Source of the DNA: Candidatus Delongbacteria bacterium
Lineage (GTDB): Bacteria > UBA4055
NCBI GenBank assembly: GCA_016937995.1
Contig: JAFGVM010000064.1
Span: 27,636 to 91,635 of the forward strand
Direction: 5' to 3'
DNA length: 64,000 bases
Below, piece by piece: positions 7,743 to 37,481 of this stretch (its first letter is position 1; each line of letters opens with the position of its first letter). Position numbers and translations under genes: made by a program. The notes under the pieces are model-generated. The model had not been told where the DNA came from. It was given only the letters and a program-made list of their open reading frames with translations, and did no database searches.

Positions 7743-7779
7743 AGGGGACGGTAAGAAACCGTCCCCTACAATTTTTTTT
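7743..7779 (+). terminator. rho-independent terminator (AGGGGACGG-loop-CCGTCCCCT followed by T8)
   Basis: A perfect 9-bp GC-rich stem, 7-nt loop and T-run, lying downstream of the 7337..7630 ORF. Confidence 0.6.
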
Positions 7780-8022: not shown

Positions 8023-11000
8023 ATGAAAAATCTCATACCTCATTTGATTCAGGAAAAATATTTAAAAAACAAAACATCCGGATGGATCTTCGGTTCTGTA
8101 GTATCAATTGATCTGAAGGGTTTTACAAAAATGACTGAAGATCTTATGAAAGATGGTTACTATGGTGCAGAAACATTATCTGAAATCATTAATAAAGTTT
8201 TCGAGCCTGTAATTGATATAATATACAAAAAAGGCGGATTTGTCACAGCATTTATAGGGGATGCAATTACCGCAGTATTTCCTAATGAATATGCATTCAA
8301 TGCTGAATCTGCTTCTAAAGATATTTTAAAAAAGTTCAGCAAAATAAGTTCGATCTCAATAGAAAATTATAAATTCAATTTAAATATCAGGATAGGTATT
8401 TCCTATGGCAGGGTCATTTGGAAGATAGTTAATGTTCCTGAAAGATCAGTTTATTTTTTCAAAGGAAAAACTGTAGATCTAGCTGCAGATGCTCAACAAA
8501 AAGCTGTGCCTGGGAAAATAAAGATAGACAGATCGTATAAAATTGAAAATGGTAAACCGAATAATAAGAAAGCAGTAATAGAAAATATTTCAGAAGAAGT
8601 ATTAAAAGATTTTGTTCCTGATAATGTTCTTGAAATGAAAACACTGGGTGAATTCAGAGATATAGTATCAATATTCATTACCTTTAATGAAATCAGCACC
8701 GATCTGATCCTGTTGTCTAAGTTCCTTTGCTCTGAAAGTGTAAAATATAAGGGTTATCTAAATAAGATCGACTTTGGAGATAAAGGAGGTATTGCTCTTG
8801 TAGTATTCGGAGCTCCGATCAAGGTAGAAAAATACGCTGAACATGCATTGTCATTTGCAATTGAACTTGAAAAGAGATTTCCATTTATAAAGATCGGTAT
8901 AGCCAAAGGAATTACGTACTGTGGTTTTGTCGGTAGTGCTAAGAGAGCTGAATATACAGTTCTTGGTGATACAGTTAATTTGTCAGCCAGATTGATAAAT
9001 GTTACTCCTAAGGGAAAGATCAGAGTTGATGAGAACATGGCAAAGTATAATTATTCCGGCTTTGAATTTAAAACCGAAGGTAAGTATAAATTCAAAGGTT
9101 TTTCGAAACAATTGGCTGTCTTTTCACCTGAAGTAAGATCACATAAGAAACATTTGGATGTTGAAAGTGTATTCGTAGGCAGAGAAAAAGAAATGCAGGT
9201 CCTGAAAGATTTTATAGAACCGATATTTAAAAATAGATTCGCAGGATATATACAGATAAATGGGAATGCGGGTGTAGGTAAAAGCAGATTGGTAAGTGCA
9301 TTAAAAGATAATCTTGGAAAGAAGAAATTTAAGTGGTTCTTTATTTCATGTGATAATATCGTAAATAAAAGTTTTCAGCCTCTAATATCATTTCTTAATC
9401 AGTATATTCAACTGATAGAGAGTCTGGATATTTATGAAAAAACAAAAATATTTAAAGAACATTTAGGCGAACTTAAGAAAATAAGTAGATCAATAAAAGA
9501 TAATCTCAAGAAGATAGAATTTTTTCTTGGAAAATTACTCGGATTAAATGTAAATGATAAAACTTTTGAAAAACTTCCTTCACAGGATATATATGAAAAC
9601 ACATTATTTGCATTTAAACACTATATGTTGTCATACTGTACTAAATATCCGGTTATACTTGAAATAGATGATATCTATAAAGCTGATGAACAGACTCTTG
9701 ATGTAATAAAAGTATTATCGAGGTCCGAAGAAAATATCCCATTTTGCATTATAGGCTCTTCGAGATATCTTGATAATGGAGAGAAGTTCGTTCCGGGGTT
9801 AGATGATGTTGATGAATTTTCAATAGAATTAAAAACTTTGACAAGATCATCTGCAAGAGCAATTATTGAGTTTCTGCTTAGTGTTAAAATATCGGACAAA
9901 TTGTTCAATACAATTTGGGAAAAATCCACCGGAAACCCTTTTTATACCGAACAGCTGACACTTTTTCTTAAGGAGTCAAAATTTTTATATCTGGAAGAAG
10001 GTACAATGACCATTGATCCAAAGGAATATGCTATCCCGGAGAAAATAAGTTCTGTTATAATTTCAAGGATCGACAGATTAAGTTCAGAACTCAGAACTTC
10101 TATTAAAACAGCATCAGTGCTCGGTAAAGAATTTTCAGCTATGGTACTTTCAAAAATGCTTAAAAGTGAAGATATTGATTCACATTTAAAACTTATAGAA
10201 AAAGAAGCATTCTGGTCAAACATAACCGAGATGTTATACATCTTTAAACATGCACTTATCAGAGACAGTGTTTATCAAATGCAGTTGAAAAAAACTTTAA
10301 AAGTTCTACACAAACTTGCTGCAGAAACGATAAAGTCTGTTCATAAAAAGGGAATAGAGAAATATTATGCAGATATTGCGTATCATTATGAAAAATCCGG
10401 AGACAATAAAAATACAATAGATTATTTGTACAAGGCAGCTTTGTATGCCAATGAGAAATATTTTTTGAAGGAAAGCATTAACCACTATAACAAATTGTTA
10501 AAGTTTGAAACCGATAAAACAAATATCGCTGATATTAAATGCACTCTGGCAGATATGCTTTATACACTCGGTAAATGGGATGAAAGTAAAGCTCTGTATA
10601 AAGAAGCGGAAGTTCTGGCGAAAAAATTAAAGAATATTCGCCTTATGATAAGAGCAAAATCTGGTATTGCTGAAATAGTATTTGAAAAAGGTGATCCAGT
10701 AAAAGCTATGGAAATCTTTAAGAAACTTAATCTACAGGCAAAGAACAATAAATTGTACAGACTTCAGGCTGATATTTTAATTAATATGGGTGTTATAAAT
10801 CGGATATCATCAAAATTTGATGAAGCCCTTAAATGCTATAACTCAGTAATAAAACTAGACAAATTTAATAAAGATGACAGATTAATGTGCGGTGTTTATG
10901 ATAATCTGGGAGTTGTATATCTGAACAATAGTGAGTTAGGTAAAGCAAAAGAGAATTTCAATAAATCAAAAGAGATAGCAAAAAGAACTAATAATATCGT

Positions 11001-11964
11001 TGGTTTAATGCACGCAAGATCAAATGAAGGAATAATATATTACAGGCAGGGAAATACAAAAGAAGCTGAAAAGATATATTTGGAAGCTTTAAAAGTTGCT
11101 GAAGATATTGGACATCTGAGACATAAAAGTACAATCCTGGGGCATCTTGCTTCTATAAGTTATTACAACACTGACTATAATCAAGCATTGGATTATTTAA
11201 ATGAGGGTTACGATATAGCAAATGATCTCGGTGATAAAGCAAGTAAATGTTATTTGTTGTCGTCTATAGGTGTATTGAACCGGAGATTGGGGAATAATAA
11301 AAAAAGTTTTGAATCATTTGAAATCCAAAAAAAATTGGCAAAAGAATTAAATAATCATGAACAATATGCTATGTCTATCGGAAATATTGCTTTTATGCAT
11401 TCACTTCTAGGAAATTTTAAAAAAAGTAATAAGATGTATGAAGAAAGCAACATTCTTACTAAGAAAGTAAATGACAGGTACAGTCTGGGACATAATTATA
11501 TTAGTATGGGAGAGAATTTCAGGCACTTGAAAGATCACAAAAAGTCGATCGAGTATTACAAAAATGGATTAGTGATCGCGGAAGAATTTGATGCGAAATT
11601 TCTTCTGGTTTCGTCATATTATTATTTTGGAGAAGTATATTTTGATGTGAATGACCATAAGAATGCAAAGATATACTTTAGTAAGGCTTTAAACCTAGCT
11701 AAAGAGCTTGAAAGAGATGATTATATTTTCGACAGCAAATTAATGCTGATATTCATTGATAAAAAGATGAAGGATAAAGAAAAAGCACTCCTTGAATTAA
11801 GACCGGATAAACTTGGAGAAAATAAAAAAGCTAATCTTAACAGAATTCTTTTCCTTACTACAGGCATGAAGAAATATAAAACAGCAGCAGTGAAAATTTA
11901 TAGAGATCTATTTGATAAATTTGGATATTACGAATATAAAGTGGCTTTAGATCAATTAAAATAA
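8023..11964 (+). CDS. multidomain signalling protein: tandem class III nucleotide cyclase homology domains (CHD1+CHD2) - STAND/AAA P-loop NTPase - TPR repeats
   Basis: CHD1 spans residues about 20-200 with IDLKGFT and FIGDAIT (both metal-binding Asp present) but a degenerate GKTVDLAADA in place of the GDTVNLAARL block. CHD2 spans residues about 215-340 and lacks both Asp (FITFNEIS, FGAP) but keeps NKIDFGDKG and GDTVNLSARL (Asn and Arg present). There is a Walker A (GNAGVGKS) and Walker B (ILEIDDIY), and the C-terminal 600 aa are rich in TPR-like repeats. Confidence 0.75.
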   Translation: MKNLIPHLIQEKYLKNKTSGWIFGSVVSIDLKGFTKMTEDLMKDGYYGAETLSEIINKVFEPVIDIIYKKGGFVTAFIGDAITAVFPNEYAFNAESASKDILKKFSKISSISIENYKFNLNIRIGISYGRVIWKIVNVPERSVYFFKGKTVDLAADAQQKAVPGKIKIDRSYKIENGKPNNKKAVIENISEEVLKDFVPDNVLEMKTLGEFRDIVSIFITFNEISTDLILLSKFLCSESVKYKGYLNKIDFGDKGGIALVVFGAPIKVEKYAEHALSFAIELEKRFPFIKIGIAKGITYCGFVGSAKRAEYTVLGDTVNLSARLINVTPKGKIRVDENMAKYNYSGFEFKTEGKYKFKGFSKQLAVFSPEVRSHKKHLDVESVFVGREKEMQVLKDFIEPIFKNRFAGYIQINGNAGVGKSRLVSALKDNLGKKKFKWFFISCDNIVNKSFQPLISFLNQYIQLIESLDIYEKTKIFKEHLGELKKISRSIKDNLKKIEFFLGKLLGLNVNDKTFEKLPSQDIYENTLFAFKHYMLSYCTKYPVILEIDDIYKADEQTLDVIKVLSRSEENIPFCIIGSSRYLDNGEKFVPGLDDVDEFSIELKTLTRSSARAIIEFLLSVKISDKLFNTIWEKSTGNPFYTEQLTLFLKESKFLYLEEGTMTIDPKEYAIPEKISSVIISRIDRLSSELRTSIKTASVLGKEFSAMVLSKMLKSEDIDSHLKLIEKEAFWSNITEMLYIFKHALIRDSVYQMQLKKTLKVLHKLAAETIKSVHKKGIEKYYADIAYHYEKSGDNKNTIDYLYKAALYANEKYFLKESINHYNKLLKFETDKTNIADIKCTLADMLYTLGKWDESKALYKEAEVLAKKLKNIRLMIRAKSGIAEIVFEKGDPVKAMEIFKKLNLQAKNNKLYRLQADILINMGVINRISSKFDEALKCYNSVIKLDKFNKDDRLMCGVYDNLGVVYLNNSELGKAKENFNKSKEIAKRTNNIVGLMHARSNEGIIYYRQGNTKEAEKIYLEALKVAEDIGHLRHKSTILGHLASISYYNTDYNQALDYLNEGYDIANDLGDKASKCYLLSSIGVLNRRLGNNKKSFESFEIQKKLAKELNNHEQYAMSIGNIAFMHSLLGNFKKSNKMYEESNILTKKVNDRYSLGHNYISMGENFRHLKDHKKSIEYYKNGLVIAEEFDAKFLLVSSYYYFGEVYFDVNDHKNAKIYFSKALNLAKELERDDYIFDSKLMLIFIDKKMKDKEKALLELRPDKLGENKKANLNRILFLTTGMKKYKTAAVKIYRDLFDKFGYYEYKVALDQLK

Positions 11965-12224
11965 TTTATCCACAGACAATCTGTTAGATCAACAAAGATA
12001 TGGATCATTAACCCTATACCGATGATTCTTGTTTTTGGGATAAAACTTAAAATTAGATAAATTCCAATAGCGTAATATGAATGCAAAGGATGAAATCCGA
12101 TACTACATCTTGCAGGATCAAAGATCGGAGTAGCTAAAAGATGATCAAGATCGATCAAATAGGCTGCTAACATGATGAGCCATGAGCTCTTCCATTTACT
12201 GTTAAAAAAGAACCAGGCGATCAT
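11952..12224 (-). CDS. hypothetical small membrane protein (possibly a fragment of a membrane-bound metal-dependent hydrolase-like protein)
   Basis: 90-aa ORF with hydrophobic segments and His/Asp-rich motifs (IDLDHLL, HPLHS). It overlaps the 3' end of the convergent 8023 gene by 13 nt and has no clear Shine-Dalgarno, so it is doubtful. Confidence 0.25.
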   Translation of the reverse strand: MIAWFFFNSKWKSSWLIMLAAYLIDLDHLLATPIFDPARCSIGFHPLHSYYAIGIYLILSFIPKTRIIGIGLMIHIFVDLTDCLWINYFN

Positions 12225-23051: not shown

Positions 23052-23095
23052 TCCCTATTTTATCCAAAACCATGAAAATATACGAGGAAGAAACT

Positions 23096-26000
23096 ATGTC
23101 TCAACTGAACGGAGCATTCCCGAAGCATATTCATTCGCCTGAGTATTATATGAATAAACAGTTCATGTTCATTGATATATCAGGGTTTACACCATTGTGT
23201 GATAAATTTATAAGTGAGAGCAGTTACGGAGCAGAAAAGATCGGTGATCTGGTGAACACAGTTTTTAATCCAATTATAGATTTTGTATTTGAAAAAGGTG
23301 GGGATGTTATTTCTTTTGCAGGTGATGCATTGTTCGTTGCAGTTGAAAAGAAATCGGTCAAAGCGGTACAGGATATGTCTCAGAAACTTATAAAAGAACA
23401 GACCATAGATAAAAGTCTTGCCATTACAATAGATATGCTGAAAGATGAATACTACCCGAATATTATAAAGTCAGCTGAAGGAAGTTCATTTAGCTACTAC
23501 CCACAGAAAGATAAAAATGATCTATTGAAAAATACTTTCCCTGACGAGATATATGAGATCTATCAAAGTAATTTCAGAGGTGAACTTAGAGCTGTACCTG
23601 TTTTCTTTATTCATATTTCAGAAAAATATTCTATAAACAAAATAAGACCGTTGCTTGAATTCATTACAGAGAAATCAAAAGAGAATTCTGTTTATATCAA
23701 TAAAATAGAATATCTCGACAAAGGCTGGATGATATTGCTTTCAGCGGGATCACCTGTATATTCCTCCGAAGCACCTGTCAAAATATATGAACTGTTATCC
23801 AAATTCTCCAAGAAAGCTAAAACTTATAATATCCCTGTGCAGATAGGTGGAACTCTTCAAAGAGGTTACTGCGGTATCATCGGTAATGAAAAGAGATGGG
23901 AATTTACTTTCTTAGGGTCAAATGTCAACCTTGCAGCCAGGATCGCCTTTTCTTCAGAAAATTACAAGATCTCCTGTGATGAGTCATTTGCATATTCTTC
24001 TCAAAACCTTTTGAAGTCTGAGTCTATAGGTATAAAGACTTATAAAGGAGTAGGTGAAAGAGAAATCTTTGAAATCACGGGTAAGATCAATGATACAAAA
24101 AATATTTTCGTAGGCAGGGAGAAAGAGGTACTATCATGCTTGAATTTCTTTTCAGGTGACAGAAGAGCTTTTGTACTTTTGAACGGTCCTTCAGGAATTG
24201 GAAAAACAGTACTTGCAGAACATATAATTCAATCTTTGGGTTATAAGTTTCTTATAAGATTAAAAGGTGTTTTCGGAAATGAATCAGCTTTCTCCTTATT
24301 CGATAATTTCTGTGATAAAAATTCGGGAGCAGCTGAAATATTCAAAAAATTCAAAGCTATAAAGCAACCAACTCTAATTTATATAGATGACCTGCATTTT
24401 GCCGATGACAGCAGTTTATTTATGTTTCACAGAATGATCAACGAAGGTAACCCGTTCGTTAATTTCATAGCTACAACGATAGGAAGGGAAAAAGTTAAGA
24501 TCACACCTTTGTCTTACTATGAATCTTTGATAATTGATCTGCAGCCGTTCGACCCGAAAGATATTCAGCATATAACGAAGATGATATCAGGAATTAATAT
24601 AACATTGAAGACCAGTAAAATGCTGCACAGATCAACTCAGGGAAATCCTTTATTCATTACTAAAATACTGCCTTATATAACAAAAGATATTGAAAATTCA
24701 GGAAAAGTTCCCTATTCACTTCAGGAAATAATCTTGATGAAATTAAATGAAATTCCTGATAAAGGACCGGAATTCATTGATGGGGGCTCTGTTTATGGTG
24801 ATATTTTTGATCATGGTGTGGTTAGAGAAGTAATAAATCTGAAGGATAAAATATTTAGAGACATTGTTTCAAAGGCGGAGAACGAAGGATTAGTAAGAAG
24901 ATCTCTTTCCCGTGATGAGATGGAGTTCTCGAACACAATTATAAGAGAAATTATCTATGAAAGACTTTTAAAAAAGAAGATCGATTTTTTCAGGATAAAA
25001 ATAGCAGAAGCTATTGTTGACTCAAAGACTAAAGATCTGAAAAAATTATATAAAGCAGTGACAATGTACTTTTCTGCAAATGATAATAGAGCTCTACCTT
25101 TAGCTCTTAAACTTGTTGAAGAATTTAAAAGAACAAAAGATCATGGTACTTTAAGAAGTATCGTTCAAAGATCTTTTGAGTTCATTAAAAAGAATAACTT
25201 ATATTCAAAGGCTTATGATTTTATTGAGTTGTTTTCAAGATCTTCTCAATTTGTTATTGGTGCAAAACTAACAACAATACTCGAAGAAATAGCCTTCAAG
25301 ATAACTGATTGGAGAAATAATGAAAAATTACTTCTCTATATTGCAAGATTAGTTTTTGAGATACAGTTCAAAGCACCCGAGGAACTTCTGAAAAAATATC
25401 TGGAATTGAAAGGTGAAGATAAACATTATCTTTGGACAAAAGTAAAGACCTGTGCTTATGTAATACCGCAAAACGAAGCTGTGAAGATATTTTACGATCT
25501 GAAAAATAAATTCGAAGGCAATGAAAGGGTAGAGTTCTATATAGATTTTGTGGGTTATGCATTCTTTATCACAGGGAATGTGGACATGGAAAAAGAAGGT
25601 ATAAAGGAATTGCAGAGACTCGAATCATCTATGCCTGTTTATTTAAAAGTATCTTACTTGTTCATAAAGAACAGCATAGCTATTCACAGGGACGATATGA
25701 CTGAATCAAAAAAATGTCTTGATGAAATTACAAGTTATAATAAAAAAGATGTGGATCTTAGTGATTCTTTCTCGATATACAATGATTATTCGATCCTTTA
25801 TCTGAATTTGGCCTATGAAAATTTTGATAAAGAATATATTAAGAGATCTTTAAAGTATTCCATTAAAGCTGTTAAGGCAATGACAGACCTCCAAATAGAA
25901 GCTGATCTGCCTTTGATGACGACCAATCTTGCAAGTTACTATATGACCAGTGGTTATGTGAAGAAGGCGGAAAGAACTTATCTTGAAGGCTTGTATTATG

Positions 26001-26716
26001 GACTAAATATCGATCATCCTGTTGAGGTACTTTATACAAAATCTAGGATTGCTTTTCAAACTTCTGCATCAGGAGCTTATGCTCTTTCGATTAAGTTATC
26101 AGATGAAGTTATTCAGGGAAAGATCACAGATATCCTATCCGGTTCATATACCATCAAATATCTATATGGTGGTAAAAAGGAGAATGATCTCAAAACAGCC
26201 AAAAAATATGCTCTGGAGATAGCTAAATTCGGATCTGCAAAATGTTACTGGGAGATGTCAAGATTAATGACCCAGCAGGCATTTGCTGATAATGATATCA
26301 GTGAAATGAAAAAGATCAGAAGAGACTTGATGAAATGGAGAAAATATACTCAAAGGGCGGGAAATCTGTTTGCAAATGAAACTACGATCAAAATACTTGG
26401 ATTGATGAGTGGAATTAAGACAGAAGCTGTAAAAGTAAGAGACAGATTGTCAAAACTTGAAAAACTGAATGTTAATTTCAGTCTTCAAGGTAAATGCTGC
26501 TATGCTTTAGGACTTCATCATAAAGATATTGATCTTCTCAAAAAAGCAAAGAAATATGCTTTAAAGATGAGAGAATATCCGTTCGTTTTAAGGATCGAAA
26601 AAGAACTATACAGGATCACACAAGATAATTACTGGTCCCGAAGGATGAAAATATCAGAGAAGAAGCTTAAAGAAGTGAATAAGATAAAGAGTATTGAGGA
26701 ATTCTTTGGATACTAA
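23096..26716 (+). CDS. multidomain signalling protein, paralog of the 8023 gene: CHD1 + CHD2 cyclase homology domains - STAND P-loop NTPase - TPR repeats (the track ORF starts at a TTG at 23033; the ATG at 23096 has a GAGGAAG Shine-Dalgarno)
   Basis: CHD1 has FIDISGFT and SFAGDAL (both Asp present). CHD2 has FFIHISEKY and LLSAGSP (Asp absent) but LGSNVNLAARIAF (Asn/Arg present). Walker A is LNGPSGIGKT and Walker B is TLIYIDDLHF. A long TPR-like helical C-terminus gives the same order as the 8023 protein. Confidence 0.75.
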   Translation: MSQLNGAFPKHIHSPEYYMNKQFMFIDISGFTPLCDKFISESSYGAEKIGDLVNTVFNPIIDFVFEKGGDVISFAGDALFVAVEKKSVKAVQDMSQKLIKEQTIDKSLAITIDMLKDEYYPNIIKSAEGSSFSYYPQKDKNDLLKNTFPDEIYEIYQSNFRGELRAVPVFFIHISEKYSINKIRPLLEFITEKSKENSVYINKIEYLDKGWMILLSAGSPVYSSEAPVKIYELLSKFSKKAKTYNIPVQIGGTLQRGYCGIIGNEKRWEFTFLGSNVNLAARIAFSSENYKISCDESFAYSSQNLLKSESIGIKTYKGVGEREIFEITGKINDTKNIFVGREKEVLSCLNFFSGDRRAFVLLNGPSGIGKTVLAEHIIQSLGYKFLIRLKGVFGNESAFSLFDNFCDKNSGAAEIFKKFKAIKQPTLIYIDDLHFADDSSLFMFHRMINEGNPFVNFIATTIGREKVKITPLSYYESLIIDLQPFDPKDIQHITKMISGINITLKTSKMLHRSTQGNPLFITKILPYITKDIENSGKVPYSLQEIILMKLNEIPDKGPEFIDGGSVYGDIFDHGVVREVINLKDKIFRDIVSKAENEGLVRRSLSRDEMEFSNTIIREIIYERLLKKKIDFFRIKIAEAIVDSKTKDLKKLYKAVTMYFSANDNRALPLALKLVEEFKRTKDHGTLRSIVQRSFEFIKKNNLYSKAYDFIELFSRSSQFVIGAKLTTILEEIAFKITDWRNNEKLLLYIARLVFEIQFKAPEELLKKYLELKGEDKHYLWTKVKTCAYVIPQNEAVKIFYDLKNKFEGNERVEFYIDFVGYAFFITGNVDMEKEGIKELQRLESSMPVYLKVSYLFIKNSIAIHRDDMTESKKCLDEITSYNKKDVDLSDSFSIYNDYSILYLNLAYENFDKEYIKRSLKYSIKAVKAMTDLQIEADLPLMTTNLASYYMTSGYVKKAERTYLEGLYYGLNIDHPVEVLYTKSRIAFQTSASGAYALSIKLSDEVIQGKITDILSGSYTIKYLYGGKKENDLKTAKKYALEIAKFGSAKCYWEMSRLMTQQAFADNDISEMKKIRRDLMKWRKYTQRAGNLFANETTIKILGLMSGIKTEAVKVRDRLSKLEKLNVNFSLQGKCCYALGLHHKDIDLLKKAKKYALKMREYPFVLRIEKELYRITQDNYWSRRMKISEKKLKEVNKIKSIEEFFGY

Positions 26717-26729
26717 TAGCAGGTATGAA

Positions 26730-27521
26730 CTATCTTCCGTACTTATAGAATAATTTATTTACCCATACCGGCATAAATCTGAGGAATGTTTTTGCCAATA
26801 TTTTAGGTATCTGAAAATAACCGTGAAGTTTTTTTACCAGAAAAAAAGAAACTCTCATTTCATTTTTAACGTTGCTGAATAGAGTTCTGTTCTTCCAGAA
26901 CTTATCTGTAACCCTGAAATATATCAACGGTTCATGAATGTTATTCATTTTAACATTTTTAACGACTGCTCTAGACCAGAGATCATAATCCTGACTTTTT
27001 CTGTAATTCTCGTTATAATATCCGACAACATCAAAGAACTCTCTTCTGAAAGCTACAGATGGGTGAATGAAAGGATTTCTTGTAAATGCCCATTTTTTTA
27101 TGTCTACCTGGTAAGGCATATTTTTATAGAATATCTCTGCTCCGTCCTTATTAATCTCAATACATTCTGTACCGATTAACATAAGATCTTCATCGACTTT
27201 AAATTCTTCCAGAGTTCTCTCGAATCTTTTACGGTGAGAAATGTCATCAGCGTCCATTCTGAAATAAATATCAGCAGGATATTTTTTTAATGCTTTGTTC
27301 AAGGTTGCAGCAAGACCGATATTTTCTTCATTTCTCATGATGGTGATCCTGCGATCGTTCAGAGAATTAATGTACAGGTCAATATCTTCATTAGTTTTAC
27401 CATCTATACAAAGTATAAGATCAAAATCAGAATATGATTGAGATAGAATACTGTTCAGAGCCAATTTGAAATACTTTAGCTCATCACTGAGGGAAACAGG
27501 TAGTAAAACTTTGATATTCAT
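26730..27521 (-). CDS. family 2 glycosyltransferase
   Basis: A GT-A fold N-terminus (LILCIDGKTNED...DADD), 263 aa. Confidence 0.6.
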   Translation of the reverse strand: MNIKVLLPVSLSDELKYFKLALNSILSQSYSDFDLILCIDGKTNEDIDLYINSLNDRRITIMRNEENIGLAATLNKALKKYPADIYFRMDADDISHRKRFERTLEEFKVDEDLMLIGTECIEINKDGAEIFYKNMPYQVDIKKWAFTRNPFIHPSVAFRREFFDVVGYYNENYRKSQDYDLWSRAVVKNVKMNNIHEPLIYFRVTDKFWKNRTLFSNVKNEMRVSFFLVKKLHGYFQIPKILAKTFLRFMPVWVNKLFYKYGR

Positions 27522-27621
27522 TAACAGGTCTTATCTTTAATTTTTAGCTACAGTATGAAAAATATAGTATTTTAATGAAATAGTAAAGAGGAAAATGAGA
27601 CTGAATTATAAAACAATTTCA

Positions 27622-28755
27622 TTAAGTAATATGTACTTTATCGTTAATCATGGATTGGTATAATTCTGAATATTTATCTGACATAGCTTGAGAAGAAAAG
27701 TGTACTTTAATAATTTGTGAACAATCTGTTTTATTATGCAGCAATTCTATAGCTTGTTTGAGTTTGTTGGATAGTGCAACAGAATCATTATTCTTAAACA
27801 AAACACCAACATCACTTTTGTTAAAATAGGTAAGAATTTCTTCAAATGCTGGGATATCTGAAAGTATACAGAATAATCCACAAGAAATAGCTTCGGTCAC
27901 AACTAATCCAAATCCTTCAGTTAAAGATGAACTTATAAAGACATCAGAAGCTTGATAGTAATCTTCGACATTAGTTTGTCTTCCAACAAATTTAATATTA
28001 TCAGAACTATTAGATAAAGTCTTACATTCTTCTAATAATTCTCCGTCTCCCACAAAAATTAGTAATGACTTTTCAACTTCTGAAATCATAAAAGCTTTAA
28101 TTGTTGTGATAGGATCTTTTAGTTGTGTTAAATGGCCTACAGATAAAAAAACAACTCGATCAGCAGGTATTTTAAGCTTATCTCTTAATTTTAATTTTGC
28201 AGATAAAGGAATAGAAAAGAATTTTTTTGAATCTATGCCATTATAAACAACAGAAGTATTGAGAGAGTATCGATTTTTTAAATGCTTGGAAATACTTTTT
28301 GAGATTGATACAGGTTGGCTTATCTTTTTCAAAATCTTCATGTGAAAATACAGCATAATATTTCCTAAGAATTTACCGTATCTTAATAGGTAATCTTTAT
28401 TTGGAAAATTATGAATTGTAGAAACTGTGCTATATTTTTTTGAGAATATCGAACACAAATAATCACTTCGAATACCATGAGAGTGTATTAAGTCAGGATT
28501 GATATTGTTGATTATTTTTGAAGTATTTCTTTTCAAAAAAAAGATACCTTTTAGTCTTGATAGTTTAACCTGACTAACATCCGATCCTTCTTTTACGAAT
28601 TCATCAATAAGTGAATGTTGTGGTTCTTTTGACAATGTAATTATAAAAACATCAAATAGTTTTTTATCAAGGTTTTTAACAATGCTCAATAGAACTTGGA
28701 CTGGTCCACAATTTTTAAGAGTTGATACGATATATACTATTTTTATTTTTTTCAT
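27622..28755 (-). CDS. family 4 (GT-B, GT1-clan) glycosyltransferase
   Basis: C-terminal GT-B block with the E-x7-E motif (LTEGFGLVVTEAISCGL), 377 aa. Confidence 0.65.
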   Translation of the reverse strand: MKKIKIVYIVSTLKNCGPVQVLLSIVKNLDKKLFDVFIITLSKEPQHSLIDEFVKEGSDVSQVKLSRLKGIFFLKRNTSKIINNINPDLIHSHGIRSDYLCSIFSKKYSTVSTIHNFPNKDYLLRYGKFLGNIMLYFHMKILKKISQPVSISKSISKHLKNRYSLNTSVVYNGIDSKKFFSIPLSAKLKLRDKLKIPADRVVFLSVGHLTQLKDPITTIKAFMISEVEKSLLIFVGDGELLEECKTLSNSSDNIKFVGRQTNVEDYYQASDVFISSSLTEGFGLVVTEAISCGLFCILSDIPAFEEILTYFNKSDVGVLFKNNDSVALSNKLKQAIELLHNKTDCSQIIKVHFSSQAMSDKYSELYQSMINDKVHIT

Positions 28756-28756
28756 A

Positions 28757-29842
28757 TTATAATTTTATCATTTCATTCCATTTATCCATATATTTATCTA
28801 CAGAAAGAGTGTCAGATATTTTTATAGCATTATTACCCAAATTTCTTCTTAATTCACTATCTGTAAGTAAAAGTCTTATTTTTTCGCTAAGTTCCTCGAT
28901 ATTTTCATTTTGAATAAGAATACCGTTAACATTATTTTCAATTATATTTCTAGGCCCATTCGGACAATCTGTTGAAATAACAGGTAAGCCTGCAGACATA
29001 GCTTCAGCTATAACCATTCCGAAAGATTCGGATTTTGACGACAAAACGAATATGTCTGATTGGACCATCTTTTCTACTATATTGTCAACTGGATCATGAA
29101 TGATTATTTTTTGTTCAAGACCTAGGTTGTTAATTAAATTATTTAAATTACTTAACTCTGGGCCTGAACCATAAATATTCAATTTTAATTTCGGGAACTC
29201 TTTTTCTACTTTAGAAAAAGCATGTACAAGGATATCAAAACCTTTGTCTTTTATCAATCTACCTACGCTTATCAATTCGTATTTTAAATCGCTATAATTT
29301 GTTTTAAATAAGCTGGAATTCATAATAGGGTTGTATACAACATGTATTTTATTGCTCAATACTGATGAAAAAAAAATCTTATCCTCAGGAGTAATAACAG
29401 TGATTGCTTTTGTAAGTTTATATGTTTTTATTCTCAGAAATTCCCATATATTGCCGATTTTTTTAAAGCAAAGTGCAAAATGCTCAGTTGCAATTACTGG
29501 AATTTTAGTTTTGAATAGAGAGATTATGGTTAAAATATTCAATATATCTGCAAATGAAATAATTAGGTCGGGTTTTGTTCTTAGAATCGCTTTCCTAATC
29601 TTATATAGTGTTACTGGAAAATATAATGATTTTAAGACAGGATTTTTGATCTTGCCGAGTATGTCAGTTTTGATCAATTTGATTTGGGGATCCAACGGAT
29701 AAAAACTATTTTTAGAAGTATCACTGACTGTTAATATAGTAACTTTATGATCACGCTTCACCAATTCAGATGATAGGATGGACATTACTCTTTCAGTTCC
29801 CCCAGAGTTACTCATTTTTGATATTATTAAAGTTATTCTCAT
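28757..29842 (-). CDS. family 4 glycosyltransferase
   Basis: SESFGMVIAEAMSAGLPVISTDCPNGP, the GT4 E-x7-E signature, 361 aa. Confidence 0.65.
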   Translation of the reverse strand: MRITLIISKMSNSGGTERVMSILSSELVKRDHKVTILTVSDTSKNSFYPLDPQIKLIKTDILGKIKNPVLKSLYFPVTLYKIRKAILRTKPDLIISFADILNILTIISLFKTKIPVIATEHFALCFKKIGNIWEFLRIKTYKLTKAITVITPEDKIFFSSVLSNKIHVVYNPIMNSSLFKTNYSDLKYELISVGRLIKDKGFDILVHAFSKVEKEFPKLKLNIYGSGPELSNLNNLINNLGLEQKIIIHDPVDNIVEKMVQSDIFVLSSKSESFGMVIAEAMSAGLPVISTDCPNGPRNIIENNVNGILIQNENIEELSEKIRLLLTDSELRRNLGNNAIKISDTLSVDKYMDKWNEMIKL

Positions 29843-29859
29843 TTGATCTATACAATTCC

Positions 29860-30864
29860 CTAAAATAATCTTGATTTTTTGTTCTTGTAGATATTGAAGT
29901 ATATATTGTCGAAATATAAAAGCATAATTGATTTAATCATAAGTTTATAATTTTTAAATGGATTCATATAAAATGCTCTTCTAAGGAAATATTTTATTAT
30001 CTTCCTTTTTCTTAAACTGAAATATTTTTTTTCTTCTTTCAATACGGCCCAATTTGTAAGTATCATAACAGTAGTTCTGACAATTTTGTCATACTTAACA
30101 GCATTTATGATCTTCGAATCCTCTTTTTGGTCTATGAATTTTTTTTCCAGATGGTAGAGTGATTTCAATATTGTAAGATATTTTAGATTTTTCAGATTCT
30201 GCATTGTTCCCTGATCATGTCTGAGATAAATTAGAAGCTCTTTATTAACACAGCTAACTCTATTTGCTTTGGCAAGTGATTCGTAGTTAAATATCTGATC
30301 CTCACCATAGCTGATATTTTCATAAAATCTGATCTTATTATTTTCTAATAACTTTTTATCGAATAAAATGCTCCAAATGTACATATATGTTTCAGATTTA
30401 AGGTATTTCAATAAAACATCTTTTCCGGATAAAACACCTTCTGTGTATTTATATCTATCCAGGTATGTTCTGAAAACAGATCCGTCAGTCAAGACTTCAG
30501 TATAACCACAATAGACCATATCTGAACCATTTTCAATGATTTTATTATACATTAATTCAAGGTAATTATTTTCCACATGATCATCACCGTCAATGAAACA
30601 AATATATTTACCGATCGAAAGTTCAATCCCGATATTTCTACTTTTACTTACCCCTTTATTTTCTTGGTCGATCACACGATAATTTGAGAAAATGTCCTTA
30701 TAAGAGTTGATCACATCCAAAGTACTATCAGTTGAACCATCGTTTACAACTATTATTTCAAAATTTTGGAAAGTCTGATTTTTTAAACTGTCCAATGTTT
30801 TTGATACGAAGTTACCAACGTTAAATGCCGGTATTATGACAGTGATATATATATCGTTGATCAT
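29860..30864 (-). CDS. family 2 glycosyltransferase
   Basis: VIIPAFNVGNFVSKTLDSLKNQTF...IVVNDGSTD...FIDGDD GT-A motifs. Confidence 0.7.
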   Translation of the reverse strand: MINDIYITVIIPAFNVGNFVSKTLDSLKNQTFQNFEIIVVNDGSTDSTLDVINSYKDIFSNYRVIDQENKGVSKSRNIGIELSIGKYICFIDGDDHVENNYLELMYNKIIENGSDMVYCGYTEVLTDGSVFRTYLDRYKYTEGVLSGKDVLLKYLKSETYMYIWSILFDKKLLENNKIRFYENISYGEDQIFNYESLAKANRVSCVNKELLIYLRHDQGTMQNLKNLKYLTILKSLYHLEKKFIDQKEDSKIINAVKYDKIVRTTVMILTNWAVLKEEKKYFSLRKRKIIKYFLRRAFYMNPFKNYKLMIKSIMLLYFDNIYFNIYKNKKSRLF

Positions 30865-32097
30865 TTAGTTCTCATTTATAATTTCTAAATATTCATTGAT
30901 AATTCTTTTGGAATCAAAATCAAATGCTCTGGCCTTACCTTTATCTGAGTAATCTTTACTCATATTTTTATCATTGAGCAAAACTTTTATTGCATCTAAA
31001 AGAAATTTCTCTTCATTCGTTAATGGTTCATAAGCATTTCTGAATTTTCCATCGCAAACTGGCGTTAATATACCAAATTCAGCAAATTCAATTTTATCTT
31101 TCAAGTTAACATCCCGGGAGCCTGGAGCTAATATCTCTCTAGGACCAGCTTTACAATCAGGGAATATCACAGGCAAACAACAGATCATTGATTCAACTAT
31201 AACATTTCCAAAACCTTCAAGTATTGAACTTGAAACAAATATGTCAGCACTTTTTAGAAGATTATATGGATTTTCAGTATAATCAATGAATCTGATACAG
31301 TCTTCCAGGTTTAACTCATTTATTAGGGTTAGTAACTGATCTTTTATTTTGATCTCAACATCTAAAAAGGCTTCACCGATTATTACGAGTTCTATGTCTG
31401 CAAATTCCTTTTTTACCTCTGAAAATGATCTGATTAAATGCCAAAAAGCTTTTGTATGACAAATCCTTCCGATTGTAATTAATCTTTTGGCATTAGATTT
31501 TTTTTGGAATTCTGTCGAGAGTGGTTCTGAAGACCGTTTGATAATGTCATCAGTATTAAACGGGTTGTATATCGGGACGATCTTTCTTTCCTGAAGATTA
31601 AAATTAGATACAAGGTCTTTTTTTAATGATCTGGATACAGTAATAATTTTATCACTTTTGTTATATAAAAACCGTATCAAGACTTTGTTAACAACGCCTC
31701 TGAAATCCCTCCTTTCAGATTCCTCTTTCGACTTGTAGCTATGAATTGTAAGTATGGAGTTATTAGTTGATCTAGATAGAATGTTTAAAATGTTAGGGTG
31801 TTCACCAAAAGAAATTATTGATCCGAGATTATATTTTTTAACAAAATTTCTTAACATGAAAAATTTCTTAAAACTTCTGGTAAATCTGTGTATTATTTTA
31901 TTGGATTGAGCATTTTGATCTAATATTAAAAGTTTACCTGAAAAATCAAATAACCTGTTCTTATTTGAGTATACAATGACAAAAACATTATAATGCTTTG
32001 AAAGCTCATTTGATAATGTCGTTGCAACCCTTTCGATCCCACCGATCACATTAAAATCTCTGAGCAATAAACCGATATTATTTTTATTTTCTGTCAT
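30865..32097 (-). CDS. family 4 glycosyltransferase
   Basis: C-terminal ILEGFGNVIVESMICCLPVI GT-B motif, 410 aa. Confidence 0.6.
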   Translation of the reverse strand: MTENKNNIGLLLRDFNVIGGIERVATTLSNELSKHYNVFVIVYSNKNRLFDFSGKLLILDQNAQSNKIIHRFTRSFKKFFMLRNFVKKYNLGSIISFGEHPNILNILSRSTNNSILTIHSYKSKEESERRDFRGVVNKVLIRFLYNKSDKIITVSRSLKKDLVSNFNLQERKIVPIYNPFNTDDIIKRSSEPLSTEFQKKSNAKRLITIGRICHTKAFWHLIRSFSEVKKEFADIELVIIGEAFLDVEIKIKDQLLTLINELNLEDCIRFIDYTENPYNLLKSADIFVSSSILEGFGNVIVESMICCLPVIFPDCKAGPREILAPGSRDVNLKDKIEFAEFGILTPVCDGKFRNAYEPLTNEEKFLLDAIKVLLNDKNMSKDYSDKGKARAFDFDSKRIINEYLEIINEN

Positions 32098-33118
32098 ATT
32101 TGATCGAACATTTTAATAAGAATTTTAATTTCAATACAAACCCCGGGTTAAATTTTTGTGAATAAATGAATTCTGAATAAATATCTTTTGTTTTCAATCC
32201 GAATTTTGTTGAATTAGTACAAACTGAGAACCAGTATTTTGATATTATATTTTTAAAAATGTTGTGCTGATATATTTTATTATCATCATTTGCTTTGATC
32301 AGGTTATTTATCCAAGCAAGTATCAGTTTAAGATCCTCAAATTTATCAAGAATTTTATTGGTTGATAAATTTATATGAGTTGTGATTTCTGATTCATCAG
32401 GTTTTAAACCAAGAACTTCCAACTGAGCCAAGAAGATCCTCTTCAAGAAAGTTTTTCTATAATCTTTAGTAGTCGAATTTGTAATATTTGAACTTAAGAA
32501 ACGGTATTTTAATAAAGGTTCAGTGAGATTCGCAAATTTTGTATATTTAACCATTCTAGACCAAAGCTCATAGTCCTGACTGATTTGAAATTCTTCGTTA
32601 TAACGGAATTTATGCTCATCAAGTACTGATTTTCTCATAAACACCGTTGGGTGCATGATCACATCTCTAAATAACAATTCAACCTTTATCTCATCATGCG
32701 ACAATGGAAGTTCTGTGAGTTCATTATATTTGCCAAAAAATTGAATATTCGTACCTAAAACTCCCACATCAGAATTATCCTCCATGAATGAGTACTGTTT
32801 AAGAAATCGTTCAGGTTTAGAAATGTCGTCTGAGTCCATTCTTGCTATATATTTTCCCTTTACAATATCAAGCATTTTATTCAAATTTTTTGTAAGACCA
32901 ATATTTTCTAGGTTTTTTAGCAATACTATTCTATCATCTTGCTTCGCATAATCTTCTAGAATTATTAACGAAGTATCAGAAGAACAATCATCTGTAATTA
33001 TAAATTCAAAATCAGAAAACGATTGGTTTAAAATGCTGTCAACAGATTCTTTTAAGTATAACTCGCTGTTATATACAGACATTATGACAGATATTTGAGG
33101 AGTGTTTTTAGAATTCAT
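32084..33118 (-). CDS. family 2 glycosyltransferase
   Basis: VIMSVYNSELYLKESVDSILNQSF...ITDDCSSD...RMDSDD GT-A motifs. Confidence 0.7.
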   Translation of the reverse strand: MNSKNTPQISVIMSVYNSELYLKESVDSILNQSFSDFEFIITDDCSSDTSLIILEDYAKQDDRIVLLKNLENIGLTKNLNKMLDIVKGKYIARMDSDDISKPERFLKQYSFMEDNSDVGVLGTNIQFFGKYNELTELPLSHDEIKVELLFRDVIMHPTVFMRKSVLDEHKFRYNEEFQISQDYELWSRMVKYTKFANLTEPLLKYRFLSSNITNSTTKDYRKTFLKRIFLAQLEVLGLKPDESEITTHINLSTNKILDKFEDLKLILAWINNLIKANDDNKIYQHNIFKNIISKYWFSVCTNSTKFGLKTKDIYSEFIYSQKFNPGFVLKLKFLLKCSIKYDRK

Positions 33119-34397: not shown

Positions 34398-34402
34398 CTA
34401 CT

Positions 34403-35266: not shown

Positions 35267-35325
35267 TGCTATATCCTATTGTCCTTTAGTATTAATAATG
35301 ACTTTGTTATACGTATAAATTTGAT

Positions 35326-36921: not shown

Positions 36922-36933
36922 ATTTATCTATTC

Positions 36934-37422: not shown

Positions 37423-37481
37423 AAATCATTTCCTGAAATATTAGTATTGTTATACACTTTAAAATATAGCTGAACAGATCG

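What the first reader, a model, noticed from the sequence alone, without database searches (positions are those of the whole stretch)
8023..11964. Giant signalling protein with a mammalian-style C1/C2 pseudo-heterodimeric cyclase pair fused to a STAND NTPase and TPR array
The N-terminal roughly 340 aa contain two class III cyclase homology domains whose catalytic residues are complementary. CHD1 keeps both metal-binding Asp (IDLKGFT, FIGDAIT) but has lost the Asn/Arg transition-state block (GKTVDLAADA). CHD2 has lost both Asp (FITFNEIS, FGAP) but keeps the substrate-Lys region (NKIDFGDKG) and a canonical GDTVNLSARL. That is the arrangement by which mammalian adenylyl cyclase C1 and C2 form one active site. 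Here it lies within a single bacterial polypeptide and is coupled to a P-loop (GNAGVGKS / ILEIDDIY) STAND module and about 600 aa of TPR. Cyclase-ATPase-TPR(-LuxR) proteins are known in mycobacteria (Rv0386 type) with a single homodimerising CHD. An intramolecular pseudo-heterodimer upstream of a STAND sensor is unusual, and the substrate (ATP, GTP or a pyrimidine NTP as in Pycsar cyclases) is open. The position-equivalent of the specificity Asp is Thr (LGDTVN). With no C-terminal DNA-binding domain and the NTPase-TPR order, it could be an NLR/Avs-like sensor whose output is a cyclic nucleotide.
Basis: partly seen in the sequence, partly recalled or inferred. Interest (0 to 1): 0.7.

Follow-up and report, generated by a model that had tools for sequence, protein, structure and literature searches.

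The report
Bacterial soluble-adenylyl-cyclase-type STAND–TPR signalling protein
This gene encodes a bacterial relative of the animal "soluble adenylyl cyclase": a two-domain cAMP-making enzyme fused to an ATP-driven switch and a repeat sensor. The design is real but already known and very common in bacteria, and nothing suggests a phage-defence role.

Summary
It has two class III cyclase homology domains with complementary catalytic residues, then a STAND P-loop NTPase and about 13 TPR hairpins. The architecture is not unusual. The best sequence and fold match for the whole two-domain module is human soluble adenylyl cyclase (sAC/ADCY10), ahead of transmembrane cyclases. Published work defines sAC by two catalytic domains plus a STAND P-loop NTPase and says bacterial sACs have that NTPase too (Roelofs 2002; Kobayashi 2004). 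The protein is already deposited, from a Candidatus Delongbacteria MAG. It belongs to a family of over 1000 clusters at 50% identity, spread over more than 10 phyla and often present in several copies per genome. A second, divergent copy lies in this window at 23072–26716. The specificity pair is K248/T312, matching sAC K334/T405, so ATP is the likely substrate. The sAC bicarbonate-binding residues are absent. The neighbourhood is housekeeping, no neighbour is conserved across relatives, and the nearest solved STAND is the MalT-type PH0952. An Avs/Pycsar-like defence role is therefore not supported. Verdict: new member of a known kind, of modest interest.

The parts
8023..11964 (+). Complete ORF, 1313 aa: sAC-type tandem cyclase, then STAND NTPase, then TPR
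   Evidence: ORF; 100% identical to a deposited 'MAG: tetratricopeptide repeat protein [Candidatus Delongbacteria bacterium]'. (Pfam domains).
8077..8526 (+). CHD1 (C1), aa ~19-168. It supplies the two metal-binding Asp (D30 in IDLKGFT, D80 in FIGDA) and the basic residue R123 before Ile-Gly (sAC K144 position). The Asn/Arg positions are degenerate (D152, D156). The sAC bicarbonate residues K95 and R176 are replaced by A76 and A155.
   Evidence: Pfam Guanylate_cyc aa 26-170, E 5e-10. Alignment to human sAC 39-182. Conservation in 116 relatives. AF2 strands and helices.
8527..8637 (+). C1-C2 linker, aa ~169-205
   Evidence: AF2 model: mostly coil with two short helices and pLDDT 83-96. This is the variable-length region in the family alignment.
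8638..9135 (+). CHD2 (C2), aa ~206-371. It supplies the substrate and transition-state residues K248 (sAC K334), T312 (T405), N319 (N412) and R323 (R416), and the sAC-type D253-K254-G255 beta2/3 loop. No metal Asp: T220 sits at the first-Asp position.
   Evidence: Pfam Guanylate_cyc aa ~289-362, E 3e-10. Alignment to sAC 324-455. Residue numbering and conservation. sAC residue functions from PMC12867704 Table 1. sAC C2 beta1 sequence from that paper's supplement.
9172..10287 (+). STAND nucleotide-binding oligomerisation module, aa ~384-755: NBD with a helical insert, helical domain, and winged-helix/arm
   Evidence: Pfam AAA_16 aa 384-577. AF2 of aa 375-1313, pLDDT 89, pTM 0.78. Best Foldseek PDB hit is 6mfv, the PH0952 STAND with TPR sensor, E 1.6e-13. 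Conserved motifs R581, GNPF[YF]xEQ (637-644), RIDRL (682-686), F741-x-H743 and Y751.
9262..9285 (+). Walker A / P-loop, GNAGVGKS (aa 414-421)
   Evidence: G417, G419 and K420 are 116/116 and G414 is 115/116 in relatives. It lies in the loop between beta1 and alpha1 of the NBD model.
9652..9672 (+). Walker B, VILEIDD (aa 544-550)
   Evidence: Position 549 is D or E in 116/116 and D550 is 113/116. It forms a strand in the model.
10288..11961 (+). TPR solenoid (sensor), aa ~756-1313: about 27 helices, about 13 regular hairpins
   Evidence: Pfam TPR_12 (1.7e-39), TPR_2, TPR_1, TPR_10, TPR_8 and TPR_MalT. AF2 shows regular helix pairs with pLDDT above 90. PDB hits are LGN/Pins, consensus TPR proteins and PH0952.
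7743..7767 (.). Terminator-like hairpin (10-bp stem, 7 G-C pairs) upstream of the gene. It separates the gene from the upstream + strand genes.
   Evidence: Together with the convergent downstream gene at 11952..12224 (-), it indicates a stand-alone transcription unit. This is a pattern match only.
23072..26716 (+). Second, divergent paralogue in the same window (1214 aa): cyclase pair with a shortened CHD1, a P-loop NTPase, and a helical C-terminus with no Pfam TPR hits
   Evidence: Family HMM E 1.5e-77. BLASTP 26% identity, E 2e-31. Pfam AAA_16 plus a weak Guanylate_cyc hit.

Best explanation
The gene encodes a bacterial sAC-type (ADCY10-like) adenylyl cyclase.

Shown: the first ~375 residues are two cyclase homology domains on one chain that pack head-to-tail into a pseudo-heterodimer with a single complete active site. 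CHD1 gives the two metal-binding Asp (D30, D80). CHD2 gives the base-recognising Lys/Thr pair (K248, T312) and the transition-state Asn/Arg (N319, R323).

Inferred: the product is 3',5'-cAMP made from ATP. The catalytic pair is already assembled within one chain, so the downstream module is not needed to build the site. That module is a MalT/PH0952-type STAND NTPase (NBD, helical domain, winged helix/arm) followed by about 13 TPR hairpins. It most likely acts as a ligand-gated switch. In the ADP-bound resting state it restrains the cyclase. When an unknown ligand binds the TPR sensor, the NOD opens, ADP is exchanged for ATP, the protein multimerises, and the cyclase is released or activated. 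cAMP would then be read by receptors encoded elsewhere in the genome. The sAC bicarbonate-binding residues are absent, so bicarbonate sensing in the mammalian manner is not expected.
For: - Pfam finds two Guanylate_cyc domains, AAA_16 and TPRs.
- PDB sequence search: human sAC is the top hit, with both halves colinear (E 7e-21). The family profile hits sAC at 5e-54, with one stretch covering sAC 40-466.
- AF2 of aa 1-380: pLDDT 93.3, pTM 0.90.
- Foldseek: the top 24 hits are all human sAC (E ~1e-29 to 5e-25, TMq 0.74-0.81). AC9 and AC8 soluble domains come next.
- The catalytic set is invariant in 116 relatives: D30, D80, K254 and R323 at 116/116, N319 at 115/116, and R123 as K or R in 116/116.
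- The window protein has the NK+T combination at 247/248/312, as in sAC K334/T405. Residue functions are taken from PMC12867704 Table 1.
- The STAND motifs are under strong conservation. The STAND-TPR model has pLDDT 89, and its best PDB match is PH0952. The autoinhibition and activation mechanism of TPR-sensor STANDs is described in PMC6468293.
- Full-length mammalian sAC has lower specific activity than the truncated form, and this depends on the P-loop-containing region (PMC12802110).
- The literature states that sAC is defined by two catalytic domains plus a STAND P-loop NTPase, and that bacterial sAC also have the NTPase (PMC6660944).
Against: - No enzymology exists for this protein or any close relative, so activity, product and regulation are inferred.
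- I could not align the C-terminal region directly with eukaryotic sAC. No full-length sequence was obtainable and AFDB50 was unavailable.
- The base-recognising Lys (position 248) is kept in only 51/116 relatives, so specificity in the family is not uniform.
- A solved bacterial tandem-CHD protein, P. aeruginosa 6yii, is titled an 'adenylyl cyclase-like ATP-binding protein'. This shows that such scaffolds can be non-catalytic.
- Purified mammalian sACfl showed no nucleotide-dependent regulation through its P-loop, so STAND gating is unproven even in the best-studied homologue.
- No cAMP receptor was found in the 64-kb window (CRP probe only).
Confidence: 0.7

Rival explanations
1. Anti-phage sensor. 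An Avs/NLR-like STAND recognises a phage protein through its TPRs and emits a cyclic-nucleotide alarm, as Pycsar cyclases do. That signal would activate an effector.
For: The overall logic of sensor repeats, STAND NTPase and N-terminal enzymatic effector is the same as in Avs/NLR proteins. There are weak PADLOC PycC hits on CHD1 (E 1e-12). Several paralogues per genome could reflect diversifying sensors.
Against: None of the nine nearest neighbouring ORFs tested, including every ORF within ~5 kb, has a PADLOC hit, and the neighbours are housekeeping genes. In 74 related loci there is no conserved neighbour and no cNMP-binding effector gene. The PycC hits are partial and no better than generic CHD similarity, while sAC is by far the best match. 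The closest solved STAND is the MalT-type PH0952, and no Avs structure is in the top 50. A 2026 survey of defence STANDs does not mention cyclase effectors in its main text. GC content is similar to the flanks.
Confidence: 0.06
2. Pseudo-cyclase. The CHD pair binds ATP but does not cyclise it. It would serve as a nucleotide-sensing or scaffolding module, like the P. aeruginosa class III AC-like ATP-binding protein.
For: PDB 6yii is a bacterial single-chain tandem-CHD protein described in its title as an ATP-binding protein rather than a cyclase. It is a significant fold match (E 2.9e-12, TMq 0.61). The second paralogue in this window has a shortened CHD1 and lacks the K144-equivalent basic residue. 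This suggests some family members are degenerate.
Against: For the 8023 protein, every residue needed for catalysis is present and invariant across 116 relatives. That pattern is expected for an active enzyme. Similarity to the active sAC is much higher than to 6yii.
Confidence: 0.1
3. A cyclase with another substrate: GTP, as in the Dictyostelium sAC homologue, or a pyrimidine NTP.
For: The Dictyostelium homologue of sAC is reported as a guanylyl cyclase (title of Roelofs et al. 2001, listed). In the family, a subclade of 24/116 has Lys-Glu at 247/248 together with Ala at 312, instead of Asn-Lys + Thr. Specificity therefore varies within this scaffold.
Against: The window protein itself has K248 and T312. 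This is the same pair as sAC K334/T405, which recognises adenine.
Confidence: 0.08
4. A bicarbonate/CO2 or pH sensor like sAC, in which regulation occurs at the catalytic core and the STAND-TPR part is only a scaffold.
For: Chloroflexus sAC-like cyclases are reported to be bicarbonate-activated (Kobayashi 2004, as cited in PMC11006738). Non-mammalian sACs that lack the bicarbonate residues are pH-regulated (PMC12867704).
Against: The two residues that bind bicarbonate in human sAC, K95 and R176, are Ala (A76, A155) here. The K95-equivalent position is not Lys among the common residues at that position in 116 relatives. Strong conservation of the Walker A/B, sensor-1 and winged-helix motifs argues that the NTPase is functional and not a passive scaffold.
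Confidence: 0.06

Closest known systems
Mammalian soluble adenylyl cyclase, full-length isoform (sACfl, ADCY10)
   Same: Both have a single chain carrying C1 and C2 in the same order. The residue split is the same: D47/D99 in C1, and K334/T405/N412/R416 in C2. Both have the DKG C2 beta2/3 loop and Asp at the degenerate Asn position of C1 (D173 = D152). sAC is the best sequence and fold match. sACfl is also described as having a predicted STAND domain with a P-loop after C2.
   Different: The bicarbonate-binding K95 and R176 are Ala here. The C1-C2 module is shorter (~375 aa against ~470) and the whole protein is shorter (1313 aa against the 187-kDa sACfl). There is no evidence for the reported haem-binding or autoinhibitory segments. 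Homology of the C-terminal region was not tested directly.
Bacterial sAC-like cyclases (Chloroflexus aurantiacus; Kobayashi, Buck & Levin 2004; Roelofs & Van Haastert 2002)
   Same: These are bacterial proteins with sAC-type catalytic domains and the P-loop NTPase region (PMC6660944; PMC11006738). From my memory of the 2004 abstract, they have two catalytic domains plus C-terminal similarity to mammalian sAC. Chloroflexota members of the present family carry the same motifs.
   Different: The host is a different phylum (Candidatus Delongbacteria). The Chloroflexus enzyme is reported to be bicarbonate-stimulated, whereas this protein lacks the mammalian bicarbonate residues. I could not read either paper, so I did not make a residue-level comparison.
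Mycobacterial Rv0386 / Rv1358 / Rv2488c type (cyclase-ATPase-TPR-LuxR)
   Same: N-terminal class III cyclase followed by an AAA_16-type STAND NTPase and a helical repeat region.
   Different: Those proteins have one CHD that must homodimerise, and they end in a LuxR-type HTH. This protein has two complementary CHDs and no DNA-binding domain.
Mammalian transmembrane adenylyl cyclases (C1/C2 of AC1-9)
   Same: They use the same pseudo-heterodimer principle with one active and one degenerate site. AC9 and AC8 soluble domains are significant fold matches (E 5e-19 to 7e-17, TMq 0.65-0.73).
   Different: tmACs have Asp, not Thr, at the specificity position, along with membrane domains and a forskolin/G-protein interface. 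Their similarity to this protein is clearly lower than that of sAC.
PH0952 / MalT (STAND NTPases with a TPR sensor)
   Same: The NBD, helical domain, winged helix/arm and TPR sensor occur in the same order. PH0952 is the best solved-structure match to aa 375-1313, and there is a Pfam TPR_MalT hit. They provide the activation model of stepwise release of NBD-arm and NBD-sensor autoinhibition followed by multimerisation.
   Different: Their effector is a DNA-binding domain, whereas here it is a cyclase pair. The inducer here is unknown. The structural match is low (TMq 0.23, rmsd 18.6 Å, 13% identity).
Pycsar cyclases (PycC)
   Same: Class III CHD fold, with weak PADLOC hits.
   Different: PycC proteins are single-CHD proteins encoded next to a cNMP-activated effector. 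Here there are tandem CHDs, a STAND-TPR region and no adjacent effector.
P. aeruginosa class III adenylyl cyclase-like ATP-binding protein (PDB 6yii)
   Same: A bacterial single-chain tandem-CHD protein and a significant fold match.
   Different: It is much less similar than sAC (TMq 0.61, 13% identity). Its PDB title describes it as ATP-binding rather than catalytic, whereas this protein keeps all catalytic residues.

Membership tests
Class III nucleotidyl cyclase (Pfam PF00211) | Significant match to the Guanylate_cyc profile above the gathering score | tested here: met
   Two separate matches of 39.7 and 40.5 bits against a cut-off of 21.9.
sAC-type (ADCY10-like) soluble cyclase | Two catalytic domains on one chain and no transmembrane segments (definition used in PMC6660944) | tested here: met
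   Two CHDs. The rest of the protein is modelled as a soluble NTPase plus TPR. No dedicated TM predictor was run.
sAC-type (ADCY10-like) soluble cyclase | STAND-type P-loop NTPase domain C-terminal to C2 (PMC6660944; PMC12802110) | tested here: met
   AAA_16 at aa 384-577. Walker A and B are conserved. Fold match to the STAND protein PH0952.
sAC-type (ADCY10-like) soluble cyclase | Complementary active-site residues: metal Asp pair in C1; Lys, Thr, Asn and Arg in C2 | tested here: met
   D30/D80 in C1. K248/T312/N319/R323 in C2, aligned to sAC D47/D99 and K334/T405/N412/R416.
sAC-type (ADCY10-like) soluble cyclase | Closer to sAC than to any other solved cyclase | tested here: met
   phmmer 7e-21 against 7e-11 for the next family. 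Foldseek ranks 1-24 are all sAC.
sAC-type (ADCY10-like) soluble cyclase | Bicarbonate-binding Lys95 and Arg176 | tested here: not met
   The equivalents are A76 and A155. The family shows T/Y/G/S/A and Ala at these positions. The same residues are also missing in non-mammalian animal sACs, so this defines the bicarbonate-regulated subset rather than the family.
sAC-type (ADCY10-like) soluble cyclase | Colinear homology of the ~1000-aa C-terminal region with eukaryotic sAC | not tested
   No full-length sAC sequence could be obtained and AFDB50 was unavailable. Support comes from the literature only.
sAC-type (ADCY10-like) soluble cyclase | Synthesises cAMP from ATP | not testable with these tools
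   Needs enzymology.
STAND NTPase, MalT/PH0952-like with TPR sensor | Walker A and B, NBD-HD-WHD-arm order, C-terminal TPR sensor | tested here: met
STAND NTPase, MalT/PH0952-like with TPR sensor | Inducer-dependent ADP/ATP switch and multimerisation | not testable with these tools
   Mechanism taken from PMC6468293. Not shown for this protein.
Rv0386-type cyclase-ATPase-TPR-LuxR | Single homodimerising CHD and a C-terminal LuxR HTH | tested here: not met
   Two complementary CHDs, and no HTH or LuxR domain in Pfam or NCBIfam.
Pycsar | Cyclase gene adjacent to a cNMP-activated effector gene, in a defence context | tested here: not met
   No effector or defence hits among the neighbours. No conserved neighbour in 74 loci.
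Avs / bacterial NLR-like antiphage STAND | Membership of a defence STAND clade, a toxic effector domain, and a defence-island context | tested here: not met
   No PADLOC Avs/NLR model hit at E <= 1. The nearest solved STAND is PH0952. The context is housekeeping. No phylogeny was made.

The most novel reading that the evidence does not exclude
These bacterial sAC-type proteins could be true ligand-gated receptors. In this reading the near-consensus TPR array binds a specific protein, peptide or metabolite. Binding drives STAND multimerisation and a burst of cAMP, making this a bacterial NLR-like receptor whose output is a second messenger. If so, this large and experimentally tractable bacterial family could reveal what the still-unexplained STAND region of mammalian full-length sAC senses. 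No sACfl-specific regulator has been found so far (PMC12802110). A defence-related trigger is a sub-case of this reading.
Probability: 0.12. Interest if true: 0.65.

Novelty: new member of a known kind. Interest (0 to 1): 0.3.

Why it matters
As it stands this is an under-annotated but ordinary member of a known architecture; GenBank calls it only a "tetratricopeptide repeat protein". Its value is comparative. The sAC-type tandem cyclase fused to a STAND-TPR is far more widespread in bacteria than the few cases cited in the sAC literature: more than 1000 clusters at 50% identity, across Cloacimonadota, Delongbacteria, Spirochaetota, Bacteroidota, Sumerlaeota, Chloroflexota, Gemmatimonadota and other phyla. 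What the STAND region of sAC does is still open even in mammals. Bacterial homologues with confident models and strongly conserved NTPase motifs offer a tractable system for that question and for tracing the origin of eukaryotic sAC.

Tried and rejected
- Full-length eukaryotic sAC for a direct C-terminal alignment. A homologue search with the human sAC C2 fragment returned only exon-sized fragments. The PNAS 2026 supplement holds sAC sequences cut at about 400 residues. The C-terminal homology therefore rests on the literature.
- Kobayashi et al. 2004 is not held. One paper search failed on term length and one find call failed on bracket characters. The searches for Chloroflexus, for the 6yii paper and for sAC+tetratricopeptide gave nothing usable. 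The held text of the 2004 actinobacterial cyclase survey did not contain the terms.
- Defence reading: considered and rejected on context, PADLOC and STAND-clade evidence.
- Operon partner or effector: clustering the three genes on each side of the gene in 74 loci found no conserved neighbour. The only notable recurrence was another paralogue of the same gene, in 9 loci.
This is a weak negative, because no Pfam cNMP_binding scan of all ORFs was done.
- My own first assignment of K254 as the sAC K334 equivalent was wrong. I corrected it to K248 after counting along the alignment.

Full report
OBSERVATION. The window has an intact ORF at 8023..11964 on the + strand, 1313 aa. Its N-terminus matches the family consensus. 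Pfam finds Guanylate_cyc twice: aa 26-170 (E 5e-10) and aa ~289-362 (E 3e-10), each above the gathering score. It also finds AAA_16 at aa 384-577 (8e-15) and many TPR families over about aa 750-1260, including TPR_MalT. No DNA-binding domain is found.

THE CYCLASE PAIR. A sequence search of aa 1-400 against all PDB chains puts human soluble adenylyl cyclase (ADCY10) first, at E 7e-21. Both halves align in order: query 22-161 to sAC 39-182, and query 238-362 to sAC 324-455. The next family, photoactivated cyclases, scores 7e-11. A profile of 70 relatives hits sAC at 5e-54, and in one chain a single stretch covers sAC 40-466. AlphaFold2 of aa 1-380 with that alignment gives pLDDT 93.3 and pTM 0.90, so the two domains are confidently placed relative to each other. 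Foldseek against the PDB returns human sAC as hits 1-24 (E 4e-29 to 5e-25, TMq 0.74-0.81 across both domains). The soluble domains of AC9 and AC8 follow, and single-domain bacterial cyclases come well below. That test is passed.

RESIDUE MAP. I used the alignment, my own count along it, and the functional table for human sAC in PMC12867704.
- D30 = D47 and D80 = D99. These are the metal ligands in C1.
- R123 lies immediately before Ile-Gly, as K144 (the PPi 'receptor') does in sAC.
- K248 = K334, which recognises the base.
- D253-K254-G255 = D339-K340-G341. This is the C2 beta2/3 'FDKG' loop, conserved in human, sea-urchin and salmon sAC.
- T312 = T405, N319 = N412 and R323 = R416.
- In C1 the Asn and Arg positions are D152 and D156. 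sAC also has Asp (D173) at the first of these.
- In C2 the first-Asp position is T220. This follows from matching query 'IVSIFITF' to sAC 'VTIVFVNL'.

Across 116 full-length relatives, D30, D80, K254 and R323 are 116/116, N319 is 115/116, position 123 is always K or R, and the degenerate positions are consistently degenerate. The bicarbonate ligands of human sAC, K95 and R176, correspond to A76 and A155. In the family the commonest residues at these positions are T/Y/G/S/A at the first and Ala (91/116) at the second.

The specificity-Asp equivalent is T312 in 'EYTVLG', not the Thr of 'LGDTVN'. 'FGAP' is the end of beta3, not the second-Asp position. The overall conclusion of complementary half-sites stands.

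SUBSTRATE. Positions 247/248 and 312 covary cleanly in the family. Asn-Lys + Thr occurs in 49 sequences, including the window protein. Lys-Glu + Ala occurs in a subclade of 24. Most others are Asn-X + Thr. The window protein has the sAC pair, so ATP is the most likely substrate. The subclade may differ. The Dictyostelium sAC homologue is reported as a guanylyl cyclase (reference title seen).

THE STAND-TPR PART. AlphaFold2 of aa 375-1313 gives pLDDT 89 and pTM 0.78. The model shows a P-loop NBD with a helical insert, then a helical domain, a winged-helix/arm region, and about 27 helices in regular TPR pairs. The P-loop and Walker B map to the expected loop and strand. In 116 relatives the following are all conserved: Walker A GxxGxGK[ST], Walker B [DE]D, an Arg after strand 4 (R581), GNPF[YF]xEQ, RIDRL, F-x-H743 and Y751. 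That argues for a working NTPase. The best solved-structure match is PH0952 (6mfv), a MalT-type STAND with a TPR sensor (E 1.6e-13). The remaining hits are TPR proteins such as LGN, and no Avs-type structure is in the top 50 (sequence level). PMC6468293 describes how such STANDs work: NBD-arm and NBD-sensor contacts hold an ADP-bound resting form, and inducer binding releases them stepwise and allows multimerisation.

WHAT IS KNOWN.
- PMC6660944 defines sAC as a protein with two catalytic domains, no transmembrane segments and the STAND P-loop NTPase domain of Leipe et al. 2004. [quoted passage not shown] 2004.
- PMC12802110 describes full-length sAC as having a predicted STAND domain with a P-loop. 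It reports about 3-fold lower specific activity than the truncated form and no sACfl-specific regulator found so far.
- PMC11006738 cites Kobayashi et al. for bicarbonate activation of Chloroflexus cyclases.
- From my memory of the 2004 abstract, which I could not read, the Chloroflexus enzymes have two catalytic domains and C-terminal similarity to mammalian sAC.

HOW COMMON.
- The protein is identical to a deposited 'MAG: tetratricopeptide repeat protein [Candidatus Delongbacteria bacterium]'.
- The word-indexed search gave 736 hits at E <= 1e-10 among only 8000 scored candidates. Nearly all of the 120 hits listed are 1200-1450 aa with the same Pfam set.
- The exhaustive search of 1.84 billion cluster representatives with aa 1-380 gave 1087 hits at E <= 1e-30 and 5438 at E <= 1e-10.
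Phyla include Cloacimonadota, Delongbacteria, Gemmatimonadota, Atribacterota, WOR-3, Marinimicrobia, Spirochaetota, Bacteroidota (Saprospiraceae/Lewinellaceae), Sumerlaeota, Chloroflexota, Thermotogota and Mcinerneyibacteriota.
- Ten of the 64 assemblies among the 80 best loci have two to six copies.
- Chloroflexota, Spirochaetota, Sumerlaeota and Thermotogota members carry the same motifs.

CONTEXT.
- Upstream genes on the + strand are an FAD flavoprotein, an MBOAT acyltransferase, two unassigned ORFs, a TrmB-family regulator and two small ORFs.
- Downstream genes on the - strand are DUF6122, a Bax1-I family protein, an M42 peptidase, a DEAD-box helicase and a RecN-like ATPase.
- Further on are an FGE-sulfatase protein (on the + strand), a hybrid-cluster protein, cupins and a ferredoxin.
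- None of the nine nearest neighbouring ORFs tested, including every ORF within ~5 kb, hits a PADLOC model.
- A strong terminator-like hairpin lies at 7743-7767 and the downstream gene is convergent, so the gene looks monocistronic.
- In 74 related loci, clustering the three genes on each side found no conserved partner. The notable recurrence is another paralogue of the same gene, in 9 loci.
- The PADLOC PycC hits on the protein are partial CHD matches.

The Avs/Pycsar-like defence reading is therefore not supported, although it is not formally excluded.

MECHANISM (best explanation, confidence about 0.7). Shown: a single-chain sAC-type pseudo-heterodimer with one complete active site, followed by a conserved MalT/PH0952-type STAND NTPase and a TPR sensor. 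Inferred: the enzyme makes cAMP from ATP. Because the catalytic dimer is preassembled in one chain, the STAND-TPR module regulates rather than builds the site. It would hold the enzyme in a low-activity ADP-bound state until an unknown ligand binds the TPRs, after which nucleotide exchange and multimerisation release or stimulate the cyclase. Bicarbonate sensing in the mammalian manner is unlikely.

Rivals:
- A non-catalytic ATP-binding pseudo-cyclase, as the title of PDB 6yii suggests for a P. aeruginosa tandem-CHD protein.
- A different NTP substrate.
- Regulation by bicarbonate or pH at the catalytic core only.
- A defence sensor.

VERDICT. This is a new member of a known kind. Interest is modest (0.3). 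The main value is that a very large and well-modelled bacterial family could serve as a tractable system for the still-open question of what the STAND region of soluble adenylyl cyclase senses.

Noticed in passing
window 23072-26716 (+): A second, divergent paralogue of the same gene family (1214 aa) lies 11 kb downstream. It matches the family HMM at E 1.5e-77 and is 26% identical to the 8023 protein. It keeps both metal Asp residues, the DKG loop and the Thr/Asn/Arg set. However, it lacks about 40-70 aa of the second half of CHD1, has Thr where the K144-equivalent basic residue should be, and has no Pfam TPR hits in its C-terminal half. It may be a degenerate or regulatory copy.
   Followed up: partly
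family alignment of 116 relatives (P0002-P0120), query positions 247/248/312: The putative specificity residues covary cleanly. Asn-Lys + Thr occurs in 49 sequences (sAC-like, including the window protein). Lys-Glu + Ala occurs in a subclade of 24. That subclade might use a different nucleotide; the Dictyostelium sAC homologue is reported as a guanylyl cyclase.
   Followed up: partly
loci L035, L041, L045, L055, L072, L077 (one Sumerlaeota MAG, CAYMEV01); also JAGLWT01 and JAIORE01: There is strong paralogue expansion. One genome has six copies and ten of the 64 assemblies among the best 80 loci have two or more. In 9 loci a paralogue lies within three genes of the query homologue.
   Followed up: partly
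window 11952-12224 (-): A convergent DUF6122 gene (90 aa, Pfam E 3.5e-37) overlaps the 3' end of the cyclase ORF by 13 nt.
   Followed up: no
window 7743-7767: A perfect 10-bp G+C-rich hairpin flanked by T-runs on both strands. It looks like a bidirectional terminator between the small upstream ORFs and the cyclase gene.
   Followed up: no
homologues P0013, P0015, P0054, P0075, P0082, P0112: Some family members carry an extra Pfam PF01261 hit and are longer, up to 1520 aa. This suggests an additional fused domain in a subset.
   Followed up: no
window ~26700-38900 (-): A run of about twelve co-directional minus-strand ORFs coincides with the lowest G+C content in the window, 0.28-0.30 against about 0.32-0.40 elsewhere. 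I did not examine their content.
   Followed up: no
window 8023-11964: The public record names this protein only as 'tetratricopeptide repeat protein', so the cyclase and NTPase functions are not captured in its annotation.
   Followed up: yes
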